Source of the DNA: a virus
Taxonomy: Duplodnaviria; Caudoviricetes
Virus record (IMG/VR): IMGVR_UViG_3300027985_000277
Location: 1 to 61,979 of that record
DNA length: 61,979 nucleotides
Reading direction: 5' to 3' (one strand)
Below the pieces are notes generated by a model. That model was not told where the DNA came from and searched no databases. It worked only from the letters and a program-made list of their open reading frames with translations. Shown one piece after another: positions 9,044 through 42,630 of the stretch (position 1 is the first letter of the stretch; each line of letters begins with the position of its first letter). Both the position numbers and the translations under genes were made by a program.

Positions 9044-9424
9044 TCTCCTCAGAGAACACCACGCTCGAAAACTTCATCGCGGCGCAGTATTTCCGTGCGA
9101 CCACCCGAGTGCCCTACTGGCTCTACATGCAGGGGCACCACGGCAAGGGCTCGAACCGATGGCACAAGCCCTCCAAGCCGTTCCGCCGTTCGGCGGCAGT
9201 GCGCAAGGTCTACCGTGGGGACGTGTGGTGGCTGGACGCACAGTAGCTAACTTGACCCCTGACGATGCGGGGCGGCGTGTCCTGGTGAACAGTGCTGTGG
9301 TGGGCGTTCTTGAGTCCACCCCGCACCCCGCCGTGTACTCGCATTGGCTGCTCAAGGAGACCCACAGAAATAGCGGTTGGTCGTTCCAAGTGCTGTATCT
9401 CGATGACGTTGTGGAGGAGGTTCT

Positions 9425-9649
9425 GTGAATTTTCCTGGATTGCCGGAAGGCTATTTCTGGCGTGTGAAGAAGACGTGGGGCCTCGCAGGAAATGTTACTG
9501 TTCAATTGAGGAAATCATTTGGACCATTCTCCTATTGCATTTCCGACGCAATAGTGGAGCCCCGAGACGTAGTTTTGGGGGCGACAAATGCCAAACAGAA
9601 GTGGGACAATTCCAAACGCATCCCAGAGGTGTTGGGGGACTACCGATGA
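9425..9649 (+). CDS. Hypothetical protein
   Basis: GGAGG RBS; overlaps both neighbours. Confidence 0.6.
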   Translation: MNFPGLPEGYFWRVKKTWGLAGNVTVQLRKSFGPFSYCISDAIVEPRDVVLGATNAKQKWDNSKRIPEVLGDYR

Positions 9650-10914
9650 GCAACAAGTACGAGATTTTGGGTGAGCGTAACTACAGTCTCAAGGTTGTGA
9701 AGGTGCGGCAACTTGTTGAGTTGCCCGGGCTGGACAACCTGCGCGGTGTCCCCGTGGATGGCTACATGGCGCTGGTATCGAAGGATACCCCGCTTGGTGG
9801 GCTCATGGTGATGTTCCCGGCAGAGTGCCAGATCGCACCCGAGTTCGCGGCTATGAACAACCTGTACCGGGACGTGACGTTGAACGACGGCGATGCCGTG
9901 GGCTACTTGGAGAAGTCTGCCCGTATCCGGGCCATCAAGCTGCGCGGGCATGTATCAAGCGCGCTGCTGCTGCCCGCGTGGGAGCCAGACATGGCCGAGG
10001 GCCTTGAGTTCGATACGATCAACGGTAAGACGCTCTCGTGGAAGTACGTCCCGCCCATCCGGCGCGGGGCCAACCCGGCACAGGGGGCTGCTCAGCGTAA
10101 GGTGTGGAAGCGCGTGGACGCGAAGTACCTTCCCGAACACCCAGACACGGCTCAGTACCTGCGTGAGCAGGACAGCATCTCCGACGATGCCTGGTTCGTG
10201 GTGTCACAGAAGCTGCATGGCACCTCCGTCAGGTTTGGGCGGACTGTGGTGAAGCGCCAACTCAAGTGGTACGAACGGCTGTTGGTCAAACTCGGTGTGC
10301 CGGTGAGCGACCACGAGTACGACCTGATCGCAGGATCTCGGAAGGTCATCAAAGACCCCAAGAGCACCACGCAGAATCATTGGTACTCAACTGATCTGTG
10401 GACCAGTGAAGCGCTCAAGTACGCCGACCTGATCCCGAGCAACGTCGTGGTCTACGGCGAGTTGATCGGGTGGGTTCCGGGCACAAGCACCCCCATACAG
10501 AAGAACTACACCTACCAGGTTCCAGTGGGCGAGTGCCAACTGTGGGTCTATCGCGTGAGCATCGTGACTGAGGACGCCAAGCAGTACGACCTTGGGGACG
10601 CCGCCATGCGCGAGTTCTGCGGGGCCCGTGGCCTGAACGTGGTTCCGAAACTCTGGGAGGGGTACAAGCAAGGATTCGAGGTTGAGCGTTGGCTGGACCA
10701 ACGATTTGCCGACATGGTTTCGGAGCGATGGATGTGGGGCTCTCCTGTGCCGCTTGCCAAAGAAAGCCCTGTGGATGAGGGCGTGGTTGTCCGAATTGAG
10801 GGCATCCTCCCCCGATTTTTCAAAGCGAAAGGCCCCATTTTCTATGCGCATGAAACCGCGCAACTTGACGGTGGTGAGGCTGACCTTGAGACAGAGGGCA
10901 GCACTGAAGGCTGA
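9646..10914 (+). CDS. RNA ligase (Rnl2/DRB0094-like, N-terminal OB-type domain)
   Basis: Motifs SQKLHGTS (I), VYGELIG (III), DEGVVVR (IV), FKAK (V); N-terminal RIRAIKLRGHVS. Confidence 0.88.
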   Translation: MSNKYEILGERNYSLKVVKVRQLVELPGLDNLRGVPVDGYMALVSKDTPLGGLMVMFPAECQIAPEFAAMNNLYRDVTLNDGDAVGYLEKSARIRAIKLRGHVSSALLLPAWEPDMAEGLEFDTINGKTLSWKYVPPIRRGANPAQGAAQRKVWKRVDAKYLPEHPDTAQYLREQDSISDDAWFVVSQKLHGTSVRFGRTVVKRQLKWYERLLVKLGVPVSDHEYDLIAGSRKVIKDPKSTTQNHWYSTDLWTSEALKYADLIPSNVVVYGELIGWVPGTSTPIQKNYTYQVPVGECQLWVYRVSIVTEDAKQYDLGDAAMREFCGARGLNVVPKLWEGYKQGFEVERWLDQRFADMVSERWMWGSPVPLAKESPVDEGVVVRIEGILPRFFKAKGPIFYAHETAQLDGGEADLETEGSTEG

Positions 10915-11025
10915 ACTGGTGCAGGCTTGGAACGACTTGACCGTGGACGAGAAGTTGGCTATGCTCAAGTCAGTGCCAAACTTGTACTGGAGGTTGGCTT
11001 GGTTCATAGCGAGGGAGGGCAACAG

Positions 11026-11904
11026 GTGACACTGCACTTGATGAGGGGCATCAGCGGCAGCGGGAAGACCACGTACGCTAAGGCGCTGGATGCCGTGCGG
11101 ATCAGCCGTGACGACATCCGGGCTGAACTGACTGGGCGCAGTGACAAGTTTGCGGGCGACTTCAAGTTCGAGGCCAAGGTGACGCGCATTGAGCAGGAAC
11201 GCGTACGCAACCTGCTGGTGCAGCGCAAGGACGTGGTTGTGGACGACACCAACCTGGTGCTCAAGCACGCCCGAACTTGGGCCAACATGGCGAACGACTA
11301 CGGCCACGACTTCGAGGTGCACGACCTGAACGTGGGTGTGTCGGTGGCTGCGGCCCGCAATGCTGAGCGTGAAGACGGGGTGCCTGTAGAGGTGATCTAC
11401 AAGCAGGACTCCCGAGCTTGCTGGGACGCTATTGTGGCTGACGCCACGCACCCGTTCGTGGACTGGAGCCCGGTGGAGGTTGACTACAACCTAGAGGACA
11501 TCGTGACGTGCGATATTGACGGCACGCTGGCGATTTTGGCGGACGGTTTCAGCCCCTACGACCCCGCTCATTACCCGTACGATGGTCTCAACCGATCCGT
11601 GTTCGCTGCTGTGTGGGCCATGCAGGGCGCAGGGTACCCGCTCGTGTTCCTGTCGGGACGCGACGAGGGCGGGCGACAGGAGACGTACCGGTGGCTGATG
11701 GACACCCAGTTGGATGTGTCTGAACTGTTCATGCGCAAGGCCGGAGACACCCGCCGCGACGACGTGGTGAAGGTGGAGATGTTCAATGAACACATCCGGG
11801 GCAAGTACAACATCGTGATGCATTTCGATGATCGCCAACGTGTAGTCAATGCATTGCGGGCAATCGGGGTTACCGTGTTTCAGGTTGCTGAAGGAGATTT
11901 CTGA
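11026..11904 (+). CDS. pseT: Polynucleotide 5'-kinase / 3'-phosphatase (T4 PseT-like)
   Basis: GISGSGKT P-loop, SRDDIR, HAD motif DIDGT, FDDR. Confidence 0.9.
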   Translation: MTLHLMRGISGSGKTTYAKALDAVRISRDDIRAELTGRSDKFAGDFKFEAKVTRIEQERVRNLLVQRKDVVVDDTNLVLKHARTWANMANDYGHDFEVHDLNVGVSVAAARNAEREDGVPVEVIYKQDSRACWDAIVADATHPFVDWSPVEVDYNLEDIVTCDIDGTLAILADGFSPYDPAHYPYDGLNRSVFAAVWAMQGAGYPLVFLSGRDEGGRQETYRWLMDTQLDVSELFMRKAGDTRRDDVVKVEMFNEHIRGKYNIVMHFDDRQRVVNALRAIGVTVFQVAEGDF

Positions 11905-15599: not shown

Positions 15600-16350
15600 A
15601 ACTAGCCCAGACGAGTTCGATTTGGACTCAGTGTTGTCCAAGTATGTGGTGAAGCCGGTGGCTTCGGCCAAGCCGGAACTGCTCATGTTCTATAGCCCTC
15701 CTGGTTCGGGCAAGACTTGGCTGGCAGCATCTGCCAGCGAACTGCCCGGGGTCAAGAAGGTGCTCTACCTTGACATCGAGGGCTCCACGGTCGGCACACT
15801 GGGGTCGTTCGACCCAAAGAAAATCGACATCATCGAGGTTTACAAGCACCCTGACCCGTTTGCATTCGCCAACACGGTCCTTACCAAACTCGGTGACCCC
15901 GCTGCCAAGCACAGCTACGATGTGGTGGTGATCGACACCTTCGACACCTTGCAGGATCTGTCGATCAAGGCGTTCGACTCCAGCGACGGTTGGGAAATGT
16001 GGCGGGACGTGAAGGACTGGTCAACCGATATCGCCAAGATGCTCAAGCGCATCGCCCCTCTCGGCATCCTTGTGGTGCACGACCGGGAGGAGAAGTCCGA
16101 ATCCGGTGCTGTGGTGGCGCGACTGCGGTTGGCCGGTGCTGCCAAGGACATCCTTCCGGGCATCCCGGACGTGGTGGCCTACCTTGAGCGCAAGATCGAC
16201 AAGGAGGACGGCGAGGTGCATACCTACGCCTACTTCGAGAACTCGAACAAGAAAGTGACGAAGAACAGGTTCGGCTTCCCGCCCATCGTGAAGGACGTGA
16301 CGCTGGTGAACCTGTGGAAGTACATCGACAAGAAGGGAGAAGGTAAGTAA
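15592..16350 (+). CDS. AAA_24 / Sak4-like ATPase (recombinase)
   Basis: YSPPGSGKT, YLDIEG, VVIDT, TKNRF. Confidence 0.85.
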   Translation: MAETSPDEFDLDSVLSKYVVKPVASAKPELLMFYSPPGSGKTWLAASASELPGVKKVLYLDIEGSTVGTLGSFDPKKIDIIEVYKHPDPFAFANTVLTKLGDPAAKHSYDVVVIDTFDTLQDLSIKAFDSSDGWEMWRDVKDWSTDIAKMLKRIAPLGILVVHDREEKSESGAVVARLRLAGAAKDILPGIPDVVAYLERKIDKEDGEVHTYAYFENSNKKVTKNRFGFPPIVKDVTLVNLWKYIDKKGEGK

Positions 16351-16961
16351 TGGCACGTAAGGCCGAAGTAACAGGTGAGGTTTCAACCGAGGTTGGAGGT
16401 GCCTTCAAGCCGCTCCCTGCGGGACGCTACGAGGTGACCATCTTCGGGGTGGAGGAAGGCAAGTACAAGAACGGAGCCAACAAGGGCCGTCCCAACATCA
16501 ACGTCCAATACCGGATCAGCGAGGGTCAGAAGGGCACCAACCGGCGCGTCTTCCAGTTGATCCCGCTGTTCACCAACTGGGGTGGACCCGACAAGAAAGA
16601 TGCGTTCAGCTTCTTCCAGTTCTTCTCTGTTGTGCAGGGCATGTCGGAGAAGGACTTCCGGATCGCAGTGAAAGAGGACGGCGCAGCCGACAACCTTCCT
16701 GACGACGACGACCTCCTGGGCATGGAGTTGACTATCACCCTCAAGGTGGAGGACGACGAATACCATTTCGAGGAAGCCAAGAAGAAGTGGGAAGCCGAAG
16801 GCAGCAAGGGTGAGCCCCCCGTACAGGCGGACTACCAGCGCAACAGCGTCCAGAGCGTAAGCCCTGCGGGCAACGGCAACATGGACAAGGACTCCGACGA
16901 TGAGCCCTCCAGTGGCGGTGGCAGCACCAAGCGCTCGAAGGCTACGGTTCTTGACCTGTAG
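16350..16961 (+). CDS. Single-stranded DNA-binding protein (DUF669-like)
   Basis: FKPLPAGRYEVTI N-terminus, acidic tail, follows Sak4-like gene. Confidence 0.7.
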   Translation: MARKAEVTGEVSTEVGGAFKPLPAGRYEVTIFGVEEGKYKNGANKGRPNINVQYRISEGQKGTNRRVFQLIPLFTNWGGPDKKDAFSFFQFFSVVQGMSEKDFRIAVKEDGAADNLPDDDDLLGMELTITLKVEDDEYHFEEAKKKWEAEGSKGEPPVQADYQRNSVQSVSPAGNGNMDKDSDDEPSSGGGSTKRSKATVLDL

Positions 16962-16979
16962 AACGTAGTGGTGTAAGGT
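16951..16979 (+). promoter_or_regulatory. SigA-type promoter TTGACC-N17-TAAGGT driving the ncRNA cluster
   Basis: Spacing fits; first RNA helix starts ~7 nt downstream. Confidence 0.65.
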
Positions 16980-16985
16980 AGTTCC

Positions 16986-17354
16986 TGTTGTAAGGGGCGA
17001 GCGCCACGGGCCCTTAGCCCTGACAACTTCATAGAGCAACACAGACCTGATCAGTCTGTGGAGGGTGGCTGAACATCGCGGGACTGCCAGTTCTGCGGCG
17101 AAAGGCGCAACTGGGGCTTAGCGGCCCTACCTTAGCGGGTGTAACAGTTGGCGGGCTCAAAAGGGGTACTCACTAGAGCGCACTGGCTTGGCCTTGGCGG
17201 TAAAACCCAATCCGCCCCCTCGCCCGACTCGGGCACTCCGTACAGGGGTCGTTCTAGTTCCGAGCAGCGCGGACAATGCGTGAGTCCGACGCAACAATAT
17301 ACGCGGTAAAGGTAGGGACCGCGCCCAAGCCCGCCTGACAGCCGGAAAGACGGC
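16986..17354 (+). ncRNA. Large structured ncRNA A (unassigned)
   Basis: No credible CDS; many helices and two loop-mediated long-range pairings. Confidence 0.6.
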
Positions 17355-17360
17355 GGTTCC

Positions 17361-17439
17361 GGGCCTTAATAGGTTTCGACGGTTGCTAACGCCCCACGAG
17401 GGACACAACCGGAAGCGAGTTCGATTCTCGCAAGGTCCA
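17361..17439 (+). ncRNA. tmRNA-like RNA consisting only of the tRNA-like domain
   Basis: GGGCCTT/AAGGTCC acceptor with G3-U70, GGTTTCGAC D-loop motif, GGTTG/CAACC P2, T-arm GCGAG-TTCGATT-CTCGC, discriminator A. Confidence 0.8.
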
Positions 17440-17444
17440 CGAGC

Positions 17445-17710
17445 AACTGTGAGTCGTGCTTGCGAGGTGGCACCTTCGAACTCTGACTCTCTGTGGGGTC
17501 TGGACCACACATCACCCAGACTGGCCGTAGACAGCTACTACGAGATGCTGTTAGCCACAGCAGGGTGTCCCCTAGTACCGGTGGGGCAGGCGCTTCGAGT
17601 GCGCAGCACCTACGATGGGCCCCTCTGGCGGAGGGTTTGGCGGTTCGGTTACGCCCATCTAAGCCCGGACACCCGGCCCGTCTGTGCCGCCAGCACCTGG
17701 GGCCGGGATT
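17445..17710 (+). ncRNA. Large structured ncRNA B (unassigned)
   Basis: GGGTGTCC/GGACACCC multibranch, 7-bp loop-loop complement, T-run at 3' end. Confidence 0.6.
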
Positions 17711-17713
17711 TTT

Positions 17714-17784
17714 GCCCCCTTACCACAGTGGCAGTGGACCCGACTTGTAATCGGTTTACATGTGTTCGATTCACATAGGGGGCT
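17714..17784 (+). tRNA. tRNA-Thr(TGT)
   Basis: GCCCCCT/AGGGGGC acceptor, CCAC/GTGG D-stem, loop CTTGTAA, T-arm ATGTG-TTCGATT-CACAT; no CCA. Confidence 0.9.
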
Positions 17785-17789
17785 CGTGG

Positions 17790-17966
17790 ATAGTGAGTTC
17801 TGCTGCATGAGGGACGACCACTGAAACGGTAAGCGATGCAGTGGTGAGAGTTGGTCTGCGTCCGGACAGCCCGCAACCTATTGCGGGGTAATAAACGGCG
17901 CGGGGTATGGGGCTCTCCGATCACAGCCCCGGTGGCGGGACGCCGCACGAGAGTACTAGTCTCTCG
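17790..17966 (+). ncRNA. Structured ncRNA C (unassigned)
   Basis: Series of hairpins; no credible CDS. Confidence 0.45.
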
Positions 17967-18021
17967 GCTGTGTGTTACGTTTTAGGCGTACATTGGAAGG
18001 GTTCGAGTCCTCAGCACAGCA
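17967..18021 (+). ncRNA. Truncated tRNA-like element
   Basis: GCTGTGT/GCACAGC stem, TTCGAGT T-loop, only one other arm. Confidence 0.4.
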
Positions 18022-18051
18022 CTCACAACCGTACGAGGAGAGGAGTTCGTT

Positions 18052-20190
18052 TTGCAGGAGTTCTTCTCCGCGATTTACGGCGATGCGTCAGGGTGGGTTG
18101 ATATTGTCAACCGGGACCAAGATACCGGAAAGATCGACTCTGAGATGTGGCGTGAATGGCCCCGTTCAGTAGCCTACCTCGCCAAGTATTGCGGGCTCCG
18201 ACAAGACGAAGACACTTACTGCTCCGTGGCGCTGTTCACCGATAAGCTGCGCACCAAGGACGACACAAAGGCCATTGCCAATGCTGTGTGGGCCGATGCC
18301 GACACCTGTGACCCCCAGAACTTCCGCGCCACTCCCTCCATCATCGTCAATACCTCCCCGGGGCGTTGGCACTGCTGGTGGGTGTTGGACGCCCCTGTGC
18401 CCGCCGCAGACGCTTCCCTCACTAGTCAGAAAATCGCCTACGCTCACCGTGAGCAAGGCTGTGATCTGGGGTGGGCTGTCAGCAAGATCCTGCGGGTGCC
18501 CGGCACAACCAACACCAAGGACGGCCAGAACTTCTTGGTCACCGCAGAGTACACAGGAGTGCTCTACACCCTTGAGGAACTGAACGCCCTCTACACTGAC
18601 GTAGAGGCTCAGGCCCCGGTAGCGCTGACCGATGCGATGCCTGAATTGCTGACGCTTTCAGAGCGCATCGCCTTGGAGAAGCGGGTCATCGAGAACAGCC
18701 CGTTTGAGAATCTGTATCTGACGCCCCCCGAAGCCGGAGCGGACTGGTCCCAGAAACTGTTCCGACTCCAGTTTGACCTGTTCCGGGATGGGTGTACTCC
18801 CCAAGAGGTTTTCACGCTTAGCAAGCATTCGGCCTGTAACAAGTTCGCCCGGGACAACCGACCAGACTCTGACCTCTGGAAGACCGTACAGAATGCATAT
18901 CATAAGTACGAATCGGAGGAAGCACCTATTGCTGTGCGGGTAGAGGCCCGCAAAACCTACACGATTCCTGAGTTTGTGACTGATGACGAACGAAAATCTG
19001 CAACCGGAGGGTTTCCCGACACCTACACCAAGTGGGTGGCACAGCGGTCGGACGCGGCACAGACCTACAACTACAGCCTCGCCTACATGCTGCTGTCGTG
19101 CGTGTTCGGAGATCGGGGCTACATCCCGGACAAGTTCGGAATGCGTCGATTGAACCTGTGGCTACTGCTGCTGGGGGACACCACCCGCACCCGTAAGTCC
19201 ACCGCCAAGTCACTGTTCCTGCGTGTACTGCACGGGTATGAGACGGCTGCTTTGAATGGCGGCAAGATCGACATCGGCTCTGATGTCACCAAGGAAGGCC
19301 TGGGCAAGGTGCTCGGAGAACGTGATGGGCTGGTGTCCCTGATGCAGACCGACGAAGTGAACGGCATGTTCCGGGAGATGTACGGCAAGAACTACCAGAT
19401 CGGAACGCTGTCCTACTTCACTGACCTGTACGAGGGATTTGTGCCGGTGGTGCTTCGGGCAGCCAAGGATGCCGGGCAGACCAATCGGGCTCGGACAACG
19501 TTCAACATGCTGGGCGTGGGCATTCGGGAGCATGTGGCCCAGACCCTGACCAAAGAGGATTTTGAGTCCGGCTTTCTGGTTCGCATGTTGTGGTCGGTGG
19601 CCGACCCCGGGCCACGTCAGAAGGGTTCGGACAATTGGATCGACGCGATGGAGGCAGCCTCGGATGAGGCGGACGTGGCCCGCATCGTTTTGGACCTCAA
19701 GCGCAGAGCGAACAAGTTCGTGCCCGAGGCACCCTCTGCAATCAAGATTTCGGACTCAGCCAAGATCCGCTACAACGAGTGGGCTGAACTGGTGCGCAAG
19801 CACAGTGAGGAGTACGGAGACTCCGCATTGGAGGCCAGCATTGATCGCTTCCAGCACAGCATTCGGAAAGCAGCAGCCCTGCTTGCCATGTACGATGGTG
19901 TAGAAGTGATCGAGTTGAAGCACCTGCTCCCTGCTCTGGTGCAAGCTGAGCGTTGGTATGGGGACATGCTTCGGATGTTGAACGAGGTATCTTCCTCGGA
20001 TTTCGAGCGGTTGCTGAATGAGGTGGAGGCTTTCATCTCTCAAGGCACAAATGGTGAACGACAGGACGCAGCGGTGAAGCGCAAGTTCGCTCGTCTCAAG
20101 CCACAGGAGATTGGAGATGCTTTGACATCATTGAAAGCGCAGGGACGCATTCGCAACAACGGACAGTCGATTTGGCAGGTGCTGGCGTGA
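18052..20190 (+). CDS. DNA primase-helicase (RepB-like primase N-term, DUF3987-like ATPase C-term)
   Basis: WADAD, TSPGRWHCWW, LRVPGTTNTK; GDTTRTRKST, TDE, SGFLVR; GAGGAG RBS before TTG. Confidence 0.85.
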   Translation: MQEFFSAIYGDASGWVDIVNRDQDTGKIDSEMWREWPRSVAYLAKYCGLRQDEDTYCSVALFTDKLRTKDDTKAIANAVWADADTCDPQNFRATPSIIVNTSPGRWHCWWVLDAPVPAADASLTSQKIAYAHREQGCDLGWAVSKILRVPGTTNTKDGQNFLVTAEYTGVLYTLEELNALYTDVEAQAPVALTDAMPELLTLSERIALEKRVIENSPFENLYLTPPEAGADWSQKLFRLQFDLFRDGCTPQEVFTLSKHSACNKFARDNRPDSDLWKTVQNAYHKYESEEAPIAVRVEARKTYTIPEFVTDDERKSATGGFPDTYTKWVAQRSDAAQTYNYSLAYMLLSCVFGDRGYIPDKFGMRRLNLWLLLLGDTTRTRKSTAKSLFLRVLHGYETAALNGGKIDIGSDVTKEGLGKVLGERDGLVSLMQTDEVNGMFREMYGKNYQIGTLSYFTDLYEGFVPVVLRAAKDAGQTNRARTTFNMLGVGIREHVAQTLTKEDFESGFLVRMLWSVADPGPRQKGSDNWIDAMEAASDEADVARIVLDLKRRANKFVPEAPSAIKISDSAKIRYNEWAELVRKHSEEYGDSALEASIDRFQHSIRKAAALLAMYDGVEVIELKHLLPALVQAERWYGDMLRMLNEVSSSDFERLLNEVEAFISQGTNGERQDAAVKRKFARLKPQEIGDALTSLKAQGRIRNNGQSIWQVLA

Positions 20191-28288: not shown

Positions 28289-29731
28289 TTATGCCGTCCT
28301 TGTTGGTAATGTAGCAAATACCCCACAGGTTTGACCTGCCCAAAGGGTATTGAAGTCGGTAATTGTCTTTCCGGACCAAGCAGTGTTGAACTCAGAGACC
28401 AGTGTATCAGCCGTACCACTCAGGGAGTACCCTGTAGGGGACATGGTTACAGAAGAGATACGGAAGATGGCTCCTTCGCCCGTATGACGTGACCCCAGCA
28501 AGTCAGAGAACGCATTGTTTTGGATTGCTTCTGCTGAGACAGAATGGGTGGGCCCAGCAAATGCTTGGGCGGCACGGACACCAACAGTCCAAAGTCGCTC
28601 TGTCGTGTCTACGAAAGGGTTCTCCACTGTTGTAGCATTCTCTTCCTTGCTCACTGTGCCCTCCACTCCGGTCACGAACGTTTGTGTGGTCTTCACATAC
28701 CGGACACCGTACCCAGTAATGTGCAGAGAGTTATAGAATGCATTTTCGTCTACCGCTGTTGCAGCAATAGAATACGGAGCGAGTGTGGTTCCTCCGCTCG
28801 TATTCGGAAGACTTTCTACGTCGGGCGCAGTTATAGTAACGTGAAGAACTGAAGGATCATCCGAAATTTCTACCCGGATGCTTCCCCCCTGATCCACCCA
28901 TTGAGCAGCGACAATCGGAAGTCCATCATTTCCTGCAACACAATAAGCACCTGTATCTGTGCGTTCTTCTGGTCCAACGAGATCCATCGGCACAGGCTGA
29001 TTAACAGCGGATAGCCACCCGTTGCATTTGATGTCGTACTGAACTACTTCTCCTGCATCTACGGTAAGGATTTGAGGGTCGTCCACAGAAAATGGAGCGA
29101 ACTCCAAATACCCCGAACTCGGAATGGTGTATTCATACATATTCGCACTTACACTTTGCGCAGAAGTCTGGTCGTTCACGCTGTAAGTTCGAGACGAGAA
29201 TTTGGGGCTTGCAGGTTGTGTTCGAATGGTGCGAAATTTGATTACGTCTGGAGTTCCACTGTCCACGTAATATTCGTAGTCGTAGACCGTGCAAAAATGC
29301 TTGAGGTAGTCGAGTATTACCCCGCGCCATCCCGGGAACACCACTGTACCAGTGGTCGGGAGACCGGAACTGGACATCCCCGCAAGAGATAGAACTTGGT
29401 CCATTGCGTCCGTCAATGACAGTCCGTACGACGGGTAAATTGTGGCCTCAATATTGAGTCGTTGCAGCATAGTCTCCGCTGTGAATTCTACAGCGTTCTT
29501 GCTCCCCCAAGAGACCTGACTAATGCGTCCTGCGGCGGAACCGAATTGCGTATCTGTGAGAACGAATTGACGGTTTCGATTGACCTGGGGATATGTGAGT
29601 GGGCCTGTGGTGAACTTGATTGATCCCGTGCCGCCGTCAAGATCAGCCGGGTTCAAGGAAGGCACAGCGGCTTCAGCGCTGTATTGGGTGATGTTTGAGC
29701 CGATACCAGCAATGTCGGTCTTTACAGCCAT
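28289..29731 (-). CDS. Minor tail protein (baseplate hub-like)
   Basis: Second gene after tape measure. Confidence 0.75.
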   Translation of the reverse strand: MAVKTDIAGIGSNITQYSAEAAVPSLNPADLDGGTGSIKFTTGPLTYPQVNRNRQFVLTDTQFGSAAGRISQVSWGSKNAVEFTAETMLQRLNIEATIYPSYGLSLTDAMDQVLSLAGMSSSGLPTTGTVVFPGWRGVILDYLKHFCTVYDYEYYVDSGTPDVIKFRTIRTQPASPKFSSRTYSVNDQTSAQSVSANMYEYTIPSSGYLEFAPFSVDDPQILTVDAGEVVQYDIKCNGWLSAVNQPVPMDLVGPEERTDTGAYCVAGNDGLPIVAAQWVDQGGSIRVEISDDPSVLHVTITAPDVESLPNTSGGTTLAPYSIAATAVDENAFYNSLHITGYGVRYVKTTQTFVTGVEGTVSKEENATTVENPFVDTTERLWTVGVRAAQAFAGPTHSVSAEAIQNNAFSDLLGSRHTGEGAIFRISSVTMSPTGYSLSGTADTLVSEFNTAWSGKTITDFNTLWAGQTCGVFATLPTRTA

Positions 29732-42364: not shown

Positions 42365-42371
42365 AAAACAG

Positions 42372-42455
42372 GAGCGGGGGTTGGACTCGAACCAACGACT
42401 ATTGCTCTCCGGTTTGAAGGGTGCCCGCACGCTCTGCCCGCTGAGCTACCCCGCT
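42372..42455 (-). tRNA. tRNA-like RNA with non-canonical anticodon arm
   Basis: Perfect acceptor, D- and T-arms; anticodon region enlarged and containing CTTCAAA. Confidence 0.6.
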
Positions 42456-42461
42456 CCTGCG

Positions 42462-42534
42462 TCCGGATGGAGAGATTCGAACTCCCGACTCCTTGGCCCC
42501 AAACCAAGTCGCATAGCCGCTTGCGTACATCCAG
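42462..42534 (-). tRNA. tRNA-Pro(TGG)
   Basis: CTTGG-TTTGGGG-CCAAG; GGGAG-TTCGAAT-CTCTC. Confidence 0.9.
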
Positions 42535-42592
42535 TGTCTCATACCGGCGCATTACCGGGCCTGTGCCGTGCAGTTCGTTTGAGGTTGCTACA

Positions 42593-42630
42593 AGCATAGC
42601 AAAGCCCCCGAGAACTTGTCAAGGGGGCTT
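42593..42630 (-). promoter_or_regulatory. Capsid-gene terminator overlapping promoter TTGACA-N18-TATGCT for the tRNA cluster
   Basis: AAGCCCCC/GGGGGCTTT hairpin contains the -35 (42617-42622); -10 at 42593-42598. Confidence 0.7.

What the first reader, a model, noticed from the sequence alone, without database searches (positions are those of the whole stretch)
17361..17439. Mini-tmRNA: tRNA-like domain only, with no mRNA/tag domain
Seen: GGGCCTT-AATAGGTTTCGAC-GGTTG-(20 nt)-CAACC-GGAA-GCGAG-TTCGATT-CTCGC-AAGGTCC-A. Established tmRNA hallmarks present: G3-U70 alanine identity pair, A discriminator, stemless D-loop ending GG..TCGAC, P2 helix, short linker and T-arm. The usual several-hundred-nt pseudoknot and tag region is replaced by a 20 nt loop. 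Inference: an alanylatable SmpB-binding RNA that either sequesters SmpB to block trans-translation and tagging of phage proteins, rescues ribosomes without tagging, or decoys tmRNA/tRNA-cutting toxins. It might also work in trans with neighbouring RNA B.
Basis: partly seen in the sequence, partly recalled or inferred. Interest (0 to 1): 0.92.

Follow-up and report, generated by a model that had tools for sequence, protein, structure and literature searches.

The report
Tag-less mini-tmRNA carried by phages
This phage carries an intact 79-base copy of only the tRNA-like end of tmRNA, the bacterial ribosome-rescue RNA; one such phage RNA (in phage DS6A) was already reported, but it turns out to belong to a large, mostly unannotated family that probably interferes with the host's rescue-and-tagging system.

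Summary
Window 17361-17439 (+) is a 79-nt tmRNA tRNA-like domain (TLD). It has a 7-bp acceptor stem with G3:U70, an A discriminator, a stemless GGUUUCGAC D-loop, a 5-bp P2 helix capped by a 20-nt loop with a 3-bp inner hairpin, and a T-arm. It has no tag frame and no pseudoknots.

It is not a one-off or a decaying deletion. Four strict patterns found minis in more than 150 viral contigs. All 105 unique sequences keep G3:U70 and A73, which were not part of the patterns, and the stems covary strongly. A covariance model built without the window copy scores it at 63.3 bits (E 3e-14). The same model scores the published "TLD only" tmRNA of Mycobacterium phage DS6A at 58.1 bits, so they are one family.

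Two papers cite Mao 2009 that the DS6A form inhibits E. coli tmRNA. The kind is therefore known; its breadth appears undescribed, and GenBank phage records leave it unannotated.

The likeliest mechanism is an alanyl-chargeable SmpB ligand that competes with host tmRNA. Tag-less rescue is the main rival. No dedicated protein or RNA partner was found. Verdict: new member of a known kind, moderate interest.

The parts
17361..17439 (+). Whole mini-tmRNA (TLD-only) gene, 79 nt up to the discriminator. CCA is not encoded; CGA follows.
   Evidence: Sequence, fold, family model R1 at 63.3 bits, E 2.7e-14.
17361..17367 (+). Acceptor stem, 5' strand GGGCCUU. G3 forms the G3:U70 wobble.
   Evidence: Pairs with 17432-17438. 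G3:U70 is present in 105 of 105 unique family members.
17368..17380 (+). Stemless D-loop AAUAGGUUUCGAC, the tmRNA-type GGUUUCGAC motif.
   Evidence: The motif was part of the search patterns, so its conservation across the family is by ascertainment.
17381..17385 (+). P2 helix, 5' strand GGUUG. C17380 also pairs with G17411 in the model.
   Evidence: The P2 pairs covary across the family.
17386..17405 (+). 20-nt cap replacing the pseudoknots and tag region: CUAACG, inner hairpin CCC-CACGA-GGG, then ACA.
   Evidence: The inner hairpin is 87% paired, with double changes at all 3 pairs. An identical CCC-CACGA-GGG occurs in L054 and L086.
17406..17410 (+). P2 helix, 3' strand CAACC.
17411..17414 (+). 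Linker GGAA, a minority variant of the usual GGAC.
   Evidence: Twelve viral contigs carry the GGAA variant, and all 12 score 53-85 bits with R1.
17415..17431 (+). T-arm GCGAG-UUCGAUU-CUCGC.
   Evidence: T-stem pairs are 100% paired, with covariation at 4 of 5.
17432..17439 (+). Acceptor stem 3' strand AAGGUCC (U70 at 17436) plus the discriminator A.
   Evidence: A73 is present in 105 of 105. The 3' junction (discriminator, then CG) matches 4 of the phage's 5 tRNA genes; none of them encodes CCA.
17714..17785 (+). Context: tRNA-Thr(UGU) on the same strand, 275 nt downstream, in the same 1.09-kb non-coding island between the SSB-like gene (16350-16961) and the primase gene (18052-20190).
   Evidence: A distant relative (L028/L240) has tRNA-Thr(UGU), a mini and tRNA-Asn between SSB and primase.

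Best explanation
Identity (about 0.95 sure): this is an intact member of a phage-borne family of tag-less, TLD-only tmRNA homologues, the same family as the 'TLD only' tmRNA of Mycobacterium phage DS6A. Mechanism (about 0.5 sure; every step is inferred for this copy): it is transcribed with the replication-module genes and the neighbouring tRNA-Thr. Host enzymes process it like a tRNA: RNase P at the 5' end, then 3' trimming and CCA addition. Host AlaRS charges it with alanine through G3:U70 and A73. It binds host SmpB through the tmRNA-type D-loop/T-loop elbow and the P2 helix. Because it has no mRNA-like domain it cannot supply a resume codon or a tag. It therefore acts as a dominant-negative competitor of host tmRNA for SmpB, and probably also for EF-Tu and the empty A site. 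The expected result is less ssrA tagging, less proteolysis and less non-stop mRNA decay during infection, which would protect phage products made from cleaved or truncated messages.
For: The anatomy is intact and the family model scores it at 63.3 bits. The DS6A element scores 58.1 bits with the same model. Family-wide selection is clear: 105 unique sequences from 141 of 152 sources all have G3:U70 and A73, 104 start GG, and 100 of 105 have a central segment of 26-32 nt. On the 49-sequence alignment 92.1% of cells are paired against 69% in shuffles, with 281 double-change cells against 79, and slid controls give 34-51%. The phage has no SmpB gene and no full-length tmRNA. None of 50 mini-bearing viral records holds a full-length tmRNA; every RF00023 match over the cut-off is 70-98 nt long. 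No recurrent neighbouring protein exists: the largest neighbour cluster occurs in 13 of 106 loci and consists of ordinary phage genes. In the literature (passages read), Hudson et al. 2014 list 'DS6A (TLD only)' and say a similar molecule strongly inhibits tmRNA, perhaps by titrating SmpB (PMC4131195). The 2025 tmRNA database paper says the DS6A form inhibits endogenous tmRNA in E. coli (PMC11915505). Strain variants in two activated-sludge runs of one study carry 4 substitutions at 17325-17355 and none in 17361-17439.
Against: There is no expression, processing, charging or SmpB-binding evidence for this copy or any natural host. The laid contigs cannot show RNA ends, and the one metatranscriptome contig stops at 17294. 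I could not read Mao 2009, so the inhibition result is second-hand and comes from over-expression in a heterologous host. By Hudson's summary, inhibition did not need alanine charging, yet the alanine identity set is invariant in 105 of 105. That suggests the natural function needs charging and so goes beyond simple SmpB titration. The element is accessory: of 30 loci with a related primase only 2 (identical sequence) carry it, and a close relative lacks the cassette. The conservation of the D-loop, GGAC and T-loop is imposed by my search patterns. Rfam's tmRNA model does not score this copy.
Confidence: 0.5

Rival explanations
1. Tag-less ribosome rescue. Ala-mini-tmRNA with SmpB and EF-Tu enters stalled non-stop ribosomes and accepts the nascent chain, adding one Ala. 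The chain is then released by drop-off and Pth, by ArfB, or by a release factor. Ribosomes are freed without marking phage proteins for degradation. Repeated rounds could add short Ala tails.
For: The AlaRS identity set is invariant (G3:U70 and A73 in 105 of 105, G1-G2 in 104 of 105) while acceptor pairs 4-6 covary freely. Mere SmpB titration would not need this, according to Hudson's summary of Mao 2009. There is a precedent: CDS-less tmRNAs are the only tmRNA in jakobid and oomycete mitochondria and in some plastids, and they co-occur with SmpB (PMC11915505).
Against: No release partner (Pth, ArfB, RF-like or SmpB) recurs next to the minis, and the window has no SmpB. After transfer, the ribosome would again be a substrate for host tmRNA. 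The only experimental report for a family member is inhibition, not rescue. A stop triplet that could serve as a zero-length tag is absent from the central segment in 21 of 105.
Confidence: 0.25
2. Decoy or spare substrate for host defence nucleases, or other defence proteins, that target tRNA or tmRNA. It would work alongside the phage's tRNA genes and RNA-repair enzymes.
For: The phage encodes an RNA ligase (9292-10914) and a PNKP (10927-11904). In Streptomyces phage LuckySocke the mini lies in a tRNA array about 1.6 kb upstream of an RNA ligase gene. In 31 of 140 loci a tRNA lies within 500 nt, and all 186 tRNAs within 2 kb are on the same strand.
Against: No anticodon loop exists to act as a decoy for anticodon nucleases. 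In 104 of 140 loci no tRNA lies within the fetched flanks. The conserved features are those for AlaRS and SmpB, not a nuclease site. I did not test co-occurrence with repair genes against a background rate.
Confidence: 0.08
3. The tRNA-like half of a two-piece system that works in trans with a separately encoded mRNA-like RNA nearby.
For: Only at relaxed thresholds does ARAGORN propose permuted-tmRNA candidates in the gap, including a frame reading AVKVGTAPKPA* just upstream of the mini. A weak tRNA-like element lies at 17543-17613.
Against: P2 is closed by its own hairpin, so no strand is free to pair with a partner. ARAGORN makes no such call at default thresholds. The stretch 17440-17713 folds no better than shuffles, z +0.39. 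Only the mini, not its flanks, matches other loci. The corresponding downstream element in L240 aligns with the 3' end of a tRNA-Thr gene.
Confidence: 0.03
4. Non-functional remnant: a decaying internal deletion of a captured host tmRNA, or an attP fragment of an ssrA-integrating phage.
For: Phages do capture tmRNA genes, and some use ssrA as an integration site (general knowledge; PMC9004378 passages).
Against: There are more than 100 unique sequences of nearly uniform length, with compensatory changes in all four helices. Both TLD halves are present. The window has no tyrosine integrase (PF00589), and the genome has direct terminal repeats. Five bacterial genomes that carry a mini also keep a full-length tmRNA whose TLD differs from the mini.
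Confidence: 0.03

Closest known systems
Mycobacterium phage DS6A 'TLD only' tmRNA (tmRNA Website; Hudson, Lau & Williams 2014; Mao et al. 2009)
   Same: Same family by covariance model: DS6A 58.1 bits, window 63.3 bits. Same architecture: acceptor stem with G3:U70 and A73, stemless D-loop, P2 capped by an A-rich loop plus a CCG-CACG-CGG type hairpin, and a T-arm. Both are about 80 nt, phage-encoded and without a tag frame.
   Different: The sequences differ. DS6A has the D-loop GGUGGUCGAC and the linker GGCA. The phages are unrelated, and in DS6A the element lies between gp33 and a DNA polymerase processivity factor. The window copy has had no experimental test.
Standard one-piece tmRNA (ssrA, Rfam RF00023), including full-length phage copies such as Mycobacterium phage Bxz1 and Bacillus phage G
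   Same: Homologous TLD: alanine identity elements, the GGUUUCGAC D-loop, GGAC/GGAA followed by the T-arm, and the start of P2. Rfam RF00023 scores 48 of 50 mini-bearing viral records above its cut-off.
   Different: About 80 nt rather than 300-400. There is no PK1-PK4, no resume codon and no tag ORF. This copy does not reach any Rfam threshold.
Mitochondrial tmRNA of jakobids and oomycetes (Rfam RF02544) and the CDS-less plastid forms
   Same: Natural tmRNAs reduced to the tRNA-like domain with no tag frame (PMC11915505 passages).
   Different: Those are the organelle's only tmRNA and work with an imported SmpB. This one is an extra, virus-borne copy that meets a host with its own full tmRNA. 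There is no RF02544 match at E<=10.
Phage-encoded tRNA genes and tRNA arrays
   Same: Same strand, same islands and the same kind of 3' junction as the phage's tRNA genes; CCA is not encoded. It sits on a gain/loss cassette beside tRNA-Thr.
   Different: There is no anticodon arm and no D-stem, and neither ARAGORN nor the Rfam tRNA model calls it a tRNA.

Membership tests
tmRNA (ssrA, RF00023) | tRNA-like domain: 7-bp acceptor stem with G3:U70, A73, stemless D-loop with GGNUUCGAC, and a T-arm | tested here: met
tmRNA (ssrA, RF00023) | mRNA-like domain with a resume codon, tag ORF and stop | tested here: not met
   Only 20 nt lie between the P2 strands. ARAGORN finds no tmRNA. Across the family, 21 of 105 have no stop triplet in the central segment.
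tmRNA (ssrA, RF00023) | Pseudoknots PK1-PK4 (or their replacements) | tested here: not met
   There is no room for them; the fold shows one 3-bp hairpin.
tmRNA (ssrA, RF00023) | Rfam gathering score of 47 bits | tested here: not met
   No match for this copy. It is met by 48 of 50 related viral records.
tmRNA (ssrA, RF00023) | Alanylation by AlaRS and binding of SmpB and EF-Tu | not testable with these tools
   Inferred only, from the invariant G3:U70 and A73.
Phage TLD-only (CDS-less) tmRNA, DS6A type | TLD of about 75-82 nt with P2 closed by a short cap, and no tag frame | tested here: met
   79 nt. Family lengths run 67-95 with the mode at 78-80.
Phage TLD-only (CDS-less) tmRNA, DS6A type | Scores with a family covariance model built without it, as does DS6A | tested here: met
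   63.3 bits, E 2.7e-14. DS6A scores 58.1 bits.
Phage TLD-only (CDS-less) tmRNA, DS6A type | Encoded by a virus that has no SmpB and no full-length tmRNA of its own | tested here: met
   No full-length tmRNA in 50 mini-bearing records.
Phage TLD-only (CDS-less) tmRNA, DS6A type | Inhibits host tmRNA function | not testable with these tools
   Reported for DS6A in E. coli by citing papers. The primary paper is not held.
Mitochondrial tmRNA (RF02544) | Match to the Rfam model | tested here: not met
   No match at E<=10 in 16900-18100.
tRNA (RF00005), tRNA-Ala | Cloverleaf with D-stem and anticodon arm | tested here: not met
   No ARAGORN or Rfam tRNA call at this place. The fold lacks both arms.

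The most novel reading that the evidence does not exclude
The mini-tmRNA is not just an SmpB sponge. It is a charged, catalytically cycling factor that rewires trans-translation during infection. Ala-mini with SmpB enters stalled ribosomes and transfers a single Ala, or short Ala tails over repeated rounds, without the ssrA degron. Ribosomes are recycled while phage proteins escape tagging. The absolute conservation of the AlaRS identity set in more than 100 diverged sequences from phages of several bacterial phyla would then reflect this activity. The family would also offer tractable models for what tag-less tmRNAs do in mitochondria and plastids.
Probability: 0.25. Interest if true: 0.8.

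Novelty: new member of a known kind. Interest (0 to 1): 0.5.

Why it matters
Trans-translation is the main ribosome-rescue and quality-control pathway of bacteria, and it is an antibiotic target. A natural, widespread, virus-encoded RNA that keeps exactly the parts of tmRNA needed for charging and SmpB binding, and drops the parts needed for tagging, points to a recurrent phage strategy for controlling that pathway.

The kind has been in print since 2009-2014 for one phage (DS6A). First, it is a large family: more than 150 viral contigs from four strict patterns, at least 7 named phages of Streptomyces, Stenotrophomonas and Mycobacterium, and a few bacterial genomes from four or more phyla. 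Second, selection acts on the alanine identity element. Third, the gene is accessory, lies on a gain/loss cassette in tRNA islands, and has no protein partner.

There is also a practical point for annotation. ARAGORN misses these genes, or mis-extends them into bogus tmRNAs of about 330 nt. In the seven named phages examined, GenBank records leave them unannotated or place a hypothetical protein over them.

Tried and rejected
- **Standard detectors.** ARAGORN at default settings and Rfam (gathering and E<=10) gave nothing at the site. Relaxed ARAGORN (-ps80/-ps70) gave only poor tRNA and permuted-tmRNA candidates with mismatched stems, which I rejected.
- **DNA similarity.** BLAST of the 1.2-kb gap against GenBank phages found no match.
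- **Primase relatives.** A search with the single primase protein found nothing. It worked only after the protein was aligned with its L028 homologue.
- **First alignment.** The MAFFT alignment of 101 minis mis-registered the 5' acceptor strand. I replaced it with a 49-sequence subset that shares the shortest D-loop register in that alignment.
- **Other phage hits.** Tunturiibacter phage Tunturi_5 and Xanthomonas phage Xoo-sp13 matched only the T-arm and acceptor. They score 17-24 bits with R1, so I do not count them as minis.
- **False pattern hits.** Six of the 23 first pattern hits (L003, L004, L017, L018, L020, L021) lack an acceptor stem and were dropped. L063 also failed. L119 is cut by a contig end but scores 65 bits.
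- **Neighbour genes.** Clustering the genes around the minis found no partner.
- **Sequencing runs.** Only contigs were available. No RNA ends or expression of the mini could be shown, and the one true RNA-library contig covers 17074-17294 only.
- **Promoters and terminators.** The scan gave no promoter-like site and two weak terminator-like sites.
- **Zero-length-tag idea.** Rejected, because no stop triplet is conserved.
- **Literature.** Five full-text searches found no paper describing a family of phage TLD-only tmRNAs beyond DS6A. Mao 2009 is not held, and supplements were closed. The tmRNA database supplements may list more viral CDS-less forms than the text mentions.

Full report
**What is there.** The window is a complete 61,979-bp virus record with direct terminal repeats.
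- acceptor strand GGGCCUU
- a 13-nt stemless D-loop ending GGUUUCGAC
- P2 strand GGUUG
- 20 nt
- P2 strand CAACC
- linker GGAA
- T-arm GCGAG-UUCGAUU-CUCGC
- acceptor strand AAGGUCC
- discriminator A

G3 pairs with U70. CCA is not encoded. The minimum-free-energy fold reproduces this and adds a 3-bp hairpin (CCC-CACGA-GGG) inside the 20-nt cap (-27.4 kcal/mol, z -2.0). The core pattern occurs once in the window and in none of 100 shuffles.

ARAGORN does not call it. Rfam gives no tmRNA, mt-tmRNA or tRNA match there, even at E<=10.

**Setting.** The element lies in a 1.09-kb non-coding island between an SSB-like gene (16350-16961) and a primase gene (18052-20190), on the same strand. The island also holds a manA-like RNA at 17041-17226 (48.4 bits, under Rfam's 55.2 cut-off, local E 4e-11) and tRNA-Thr(UGU) at 17714-17785.

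The phage has no SmpB, no tyrosine integrase and no full-length tmRNA. It does encode an RNA ligase and a polynucleotide kinase-phosphatase. None of its five tRNA genes encodes CCA. Four of them, like the mini, have CG directly after the discriminator. That fits a shared processing route.

**It belongs to a large family.**
- A pattern made only of the D-loop core and the T-loop, with a short gap, found 23 viral contigs, 17 of which are complete minis.
- A script that asked only for a T-stem and at least 6 of 7 acceptor pairs found a mini in 141 of 152 sources, giving 105 unique sequences.

Three features were not in the patterns. All 105 have G3:U70, all 105 have an A discriminator, and 104 start GG. 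Lengths run 67-95 nt with the mode at 78-80. Thirty-two of the 105 encode CCA. The central segment is 26-32 nt in 100 of 105.

On a 49-sequence alignment that excludes the window, the four-helix structure is 92.1% paired against 69.1% in shuffles. It has 281 double-change cells against 79 (0 of 500 shuffles reach it), and slid controls give 34-51%.

The D-loop, GGAC and T-loop motifs were part of the patterns, so their invariance is ascertainment and not a finding.

**Membership.**
- The covariance model R1, built from that alignment, scores the window copy at 63.3 bits, E 2.7e-14. The next best place in the genome scores 13.3 bits.
- It scores the element of Mycobacterium phage DS6A at 58.1 bits.
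- All 12 GGAA-linker contigs score 53-85 bits.
- Rfam's tmRNA model, spanning its whole length with a huge deletion, scores 48 of 50 mini-bearing viral records above its cut-off. Every such match is 70-98 nt long, and no record has a full-length tmRNA. DS6A reaches only 43.2 bits, and the L022 record and this window get no match.

**Named phages and annotation.** The minis occur in Streptomyces phages LuckySocke, GiJojo, pSt2308, BRock and Alone3, in Stenotrophomonas virus Jojan60, and in DS6A. Each is either unannotated or lies under a 'hypothetical protein'.

ARAGORN leaves 135 of 140 minis uncalled. It extends the other 5 into tmRNAs of about 330 nt with an implausible 5' domain and 'Tag not identified'.

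**Not a decaying host gene.** In 185,579 species genomes the same pattern gave 63 loci, of which 7 score at least 57 bits. These are a Streptomyces, a Sinomicrobium, an Acidimicrobiales, two Christensenella, a Saccharibacteria and a Bacillota genome.

Five of these genomes each also hold a normal tmRNA of 367-398 nt, and its TLD differs from the mini in the same genome. For example, one host has the D-loop CAGAUUCGAU and the T-loop GUGCAAGUC, while its mini has GGUUUCGAC and GUUCAAAUC. The pattern bias applies here too, but the minis are clearly extra genes and not recent deletions of the resident ssrA.

**Accessory and cassette-borne.**
- No protein family recurs beside the minis. The largest neighbour cluster is in 13 of 106 loci, and the top clusters are capsid, protease, portal, helicase, primase and endonuclease VII.
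- In 31 of 140 loci a tRNA lies within 500 nt, and all 186 tRNAs within 2 kb are on the same strand.
- A distant relative of this phage (L028/L240; primase 37% identical) has Sak4, SSB, tRNA-Thr(UGU), a mini, tRNA-Asn and primase in that order.
- Of 30 loci with a related primase, only two (identical sequence) carry a mini.
- Their close relative L241 lacks a segment of about 360 nt that holds the mini. The tRNA-like element downstream of the mini in L240 aligns with the 3' end of L241's tRNA-Thr. The mini therefore travels on a cassette gained or lost at a tRNA gene.
The stretch 17440-17713 folds no better than shuffles.

**Reads.** Only assembled contigs were available. Near-identical strains occur in two activated-sludge runs of one study. 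They carry four substitutions at 17325-17355 and none in the mini. This is a weak hint of constraint. A metatranscriptome contig covers 17074-17294, the manA-like RNA, and not the mini. Expression of the mini is not shown.

**What is known.**
- Hudson, Lau and Williams 2014 (passages read) list 'Mycobacterium phage DS6A (TLD only)'. [quoted passage not shown] 2009.
- The 2025 tmRNA database paper (passages read) says the DS6A form inhibits endogenous tmRNA when expressed in E. coli. It sets this beside the CDS-less mitochondrial and plastid tmRNAs.
- Mao 2009 is not held.
- Five full-text searches found no description of a wider phage family. Supplements were closed and may list more.

**Mechanism.** The best reading, with every step inferred for this copy, is this. 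A tRNA-like transcript is matured by host enzymes, charged by AlaRS and bound by SmpB. It competes with host tmRNA and so blocks tagging of phage products.

The strongest point against a pure sponge model is that the alanine identity set never varies, although charging was reportedly dispensable for inhibition. That leaves real room for tag-less rescue, or Ala-only transfer, on the ribosome. I rate these at about 0.5 and 0.25. A nuclease decoy, a trans partner and a dead remnant are each under 0.1.

**Verdict.** The identity call is right. The kind is already known from one phage, so this is a new member of a known but barely studied kind. The breadth and the selection pattern of the family are the useful new information.

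Noticed in passing
window 17041-17226 (+): A manA-like structured RNA: Rfam RF01745, 48.4 bits, below the 55.2 cut-off, local E 4.4e-11, full model length. A 232-nt contig from a metatranscriptome run covers 17074-17294 with 9 substitutions and 1 insertion. No manA match reached the gathering score in 14 other mini-bearing loci.
   Followed up: partly
window 9292-10914 and 10927-11904 (+): Adjacent genes for an RNA ligase (PHROG 968, PF09414) and a polynucleotide kinase-phosphatase (PF25109 plus a kinase domain), that is, a tRNA/RNA repair pair. Streptomyces phage LuckySocke also has an RNA ligase gene about 1.6 kb downstream of its mini.
   Followed up: no
window 17543-17613 (+); L240:3220-3330: A weak tRNA-like element, with the T-arm-like hairpin GCGC-UUCGAGU-GCGC and 6 of 7 acceptor pairs, called by ARAGORN only at relaxed thresholds. 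In L240 the element at the matching place aligns with the 3' end of the tRNA-Thr gene of L241, a close relative that lacks the cassette of about 360 nt holding the mini. It looks like a recombination scar at a tRNA gene.
   Followed up: partly
window 42371-42455 (-): An odd 85-nt tRNA in the second tRNA cluster. ARAGORN calls it tRNA-Gly with anticodon ACC. The Rfam alignment shows 26 nt where the model has a 15-nt anticodon region.
   Followed up: no
L073, L134, L137, L138, L149: ARAGORN extends five minis into tmRNAs of 324-343 nt, using an upstream pseudo-5' domain without the tmRNA D-loop, and reports 'Tag not identified' (3 of the 5 inspected). This is a likely source of wrong tmRNA annotations in phage genomes.
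   Followed up: yes
L050 and L068 (one 135,953-bp viral contig; record positions 109671-109753 and 42520-42602): Two mini-tmRNA copies in one phage genome. They are nearly identical except in the inner hairpin (CCG-CAUGU-CGG against CCA-CACGU-UGG), including a compensatory pair change.
   Followed up: no
L161, L179, L186, L187, L189, L194, L200, L205, L206, L210 and others: About ten Synechococcus, Cyanobium and other cyanobacterial genome contigs, including a complete Synechococcus chromosome, give full-length but weak R1 matches of 31-37 bits and 72-76 nt. I did not determine what they are.
   Followed up: no
L024 (LuckySocke 17977-18054), L025 (DS6A 28478-28557), and hits H62-H67: The minis in seven named GenBank phages have no RNA annotation. 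In GiJojo and Jojan60 a 'hypothetical protein' CDS is annotated over them.
   Followed up: yes
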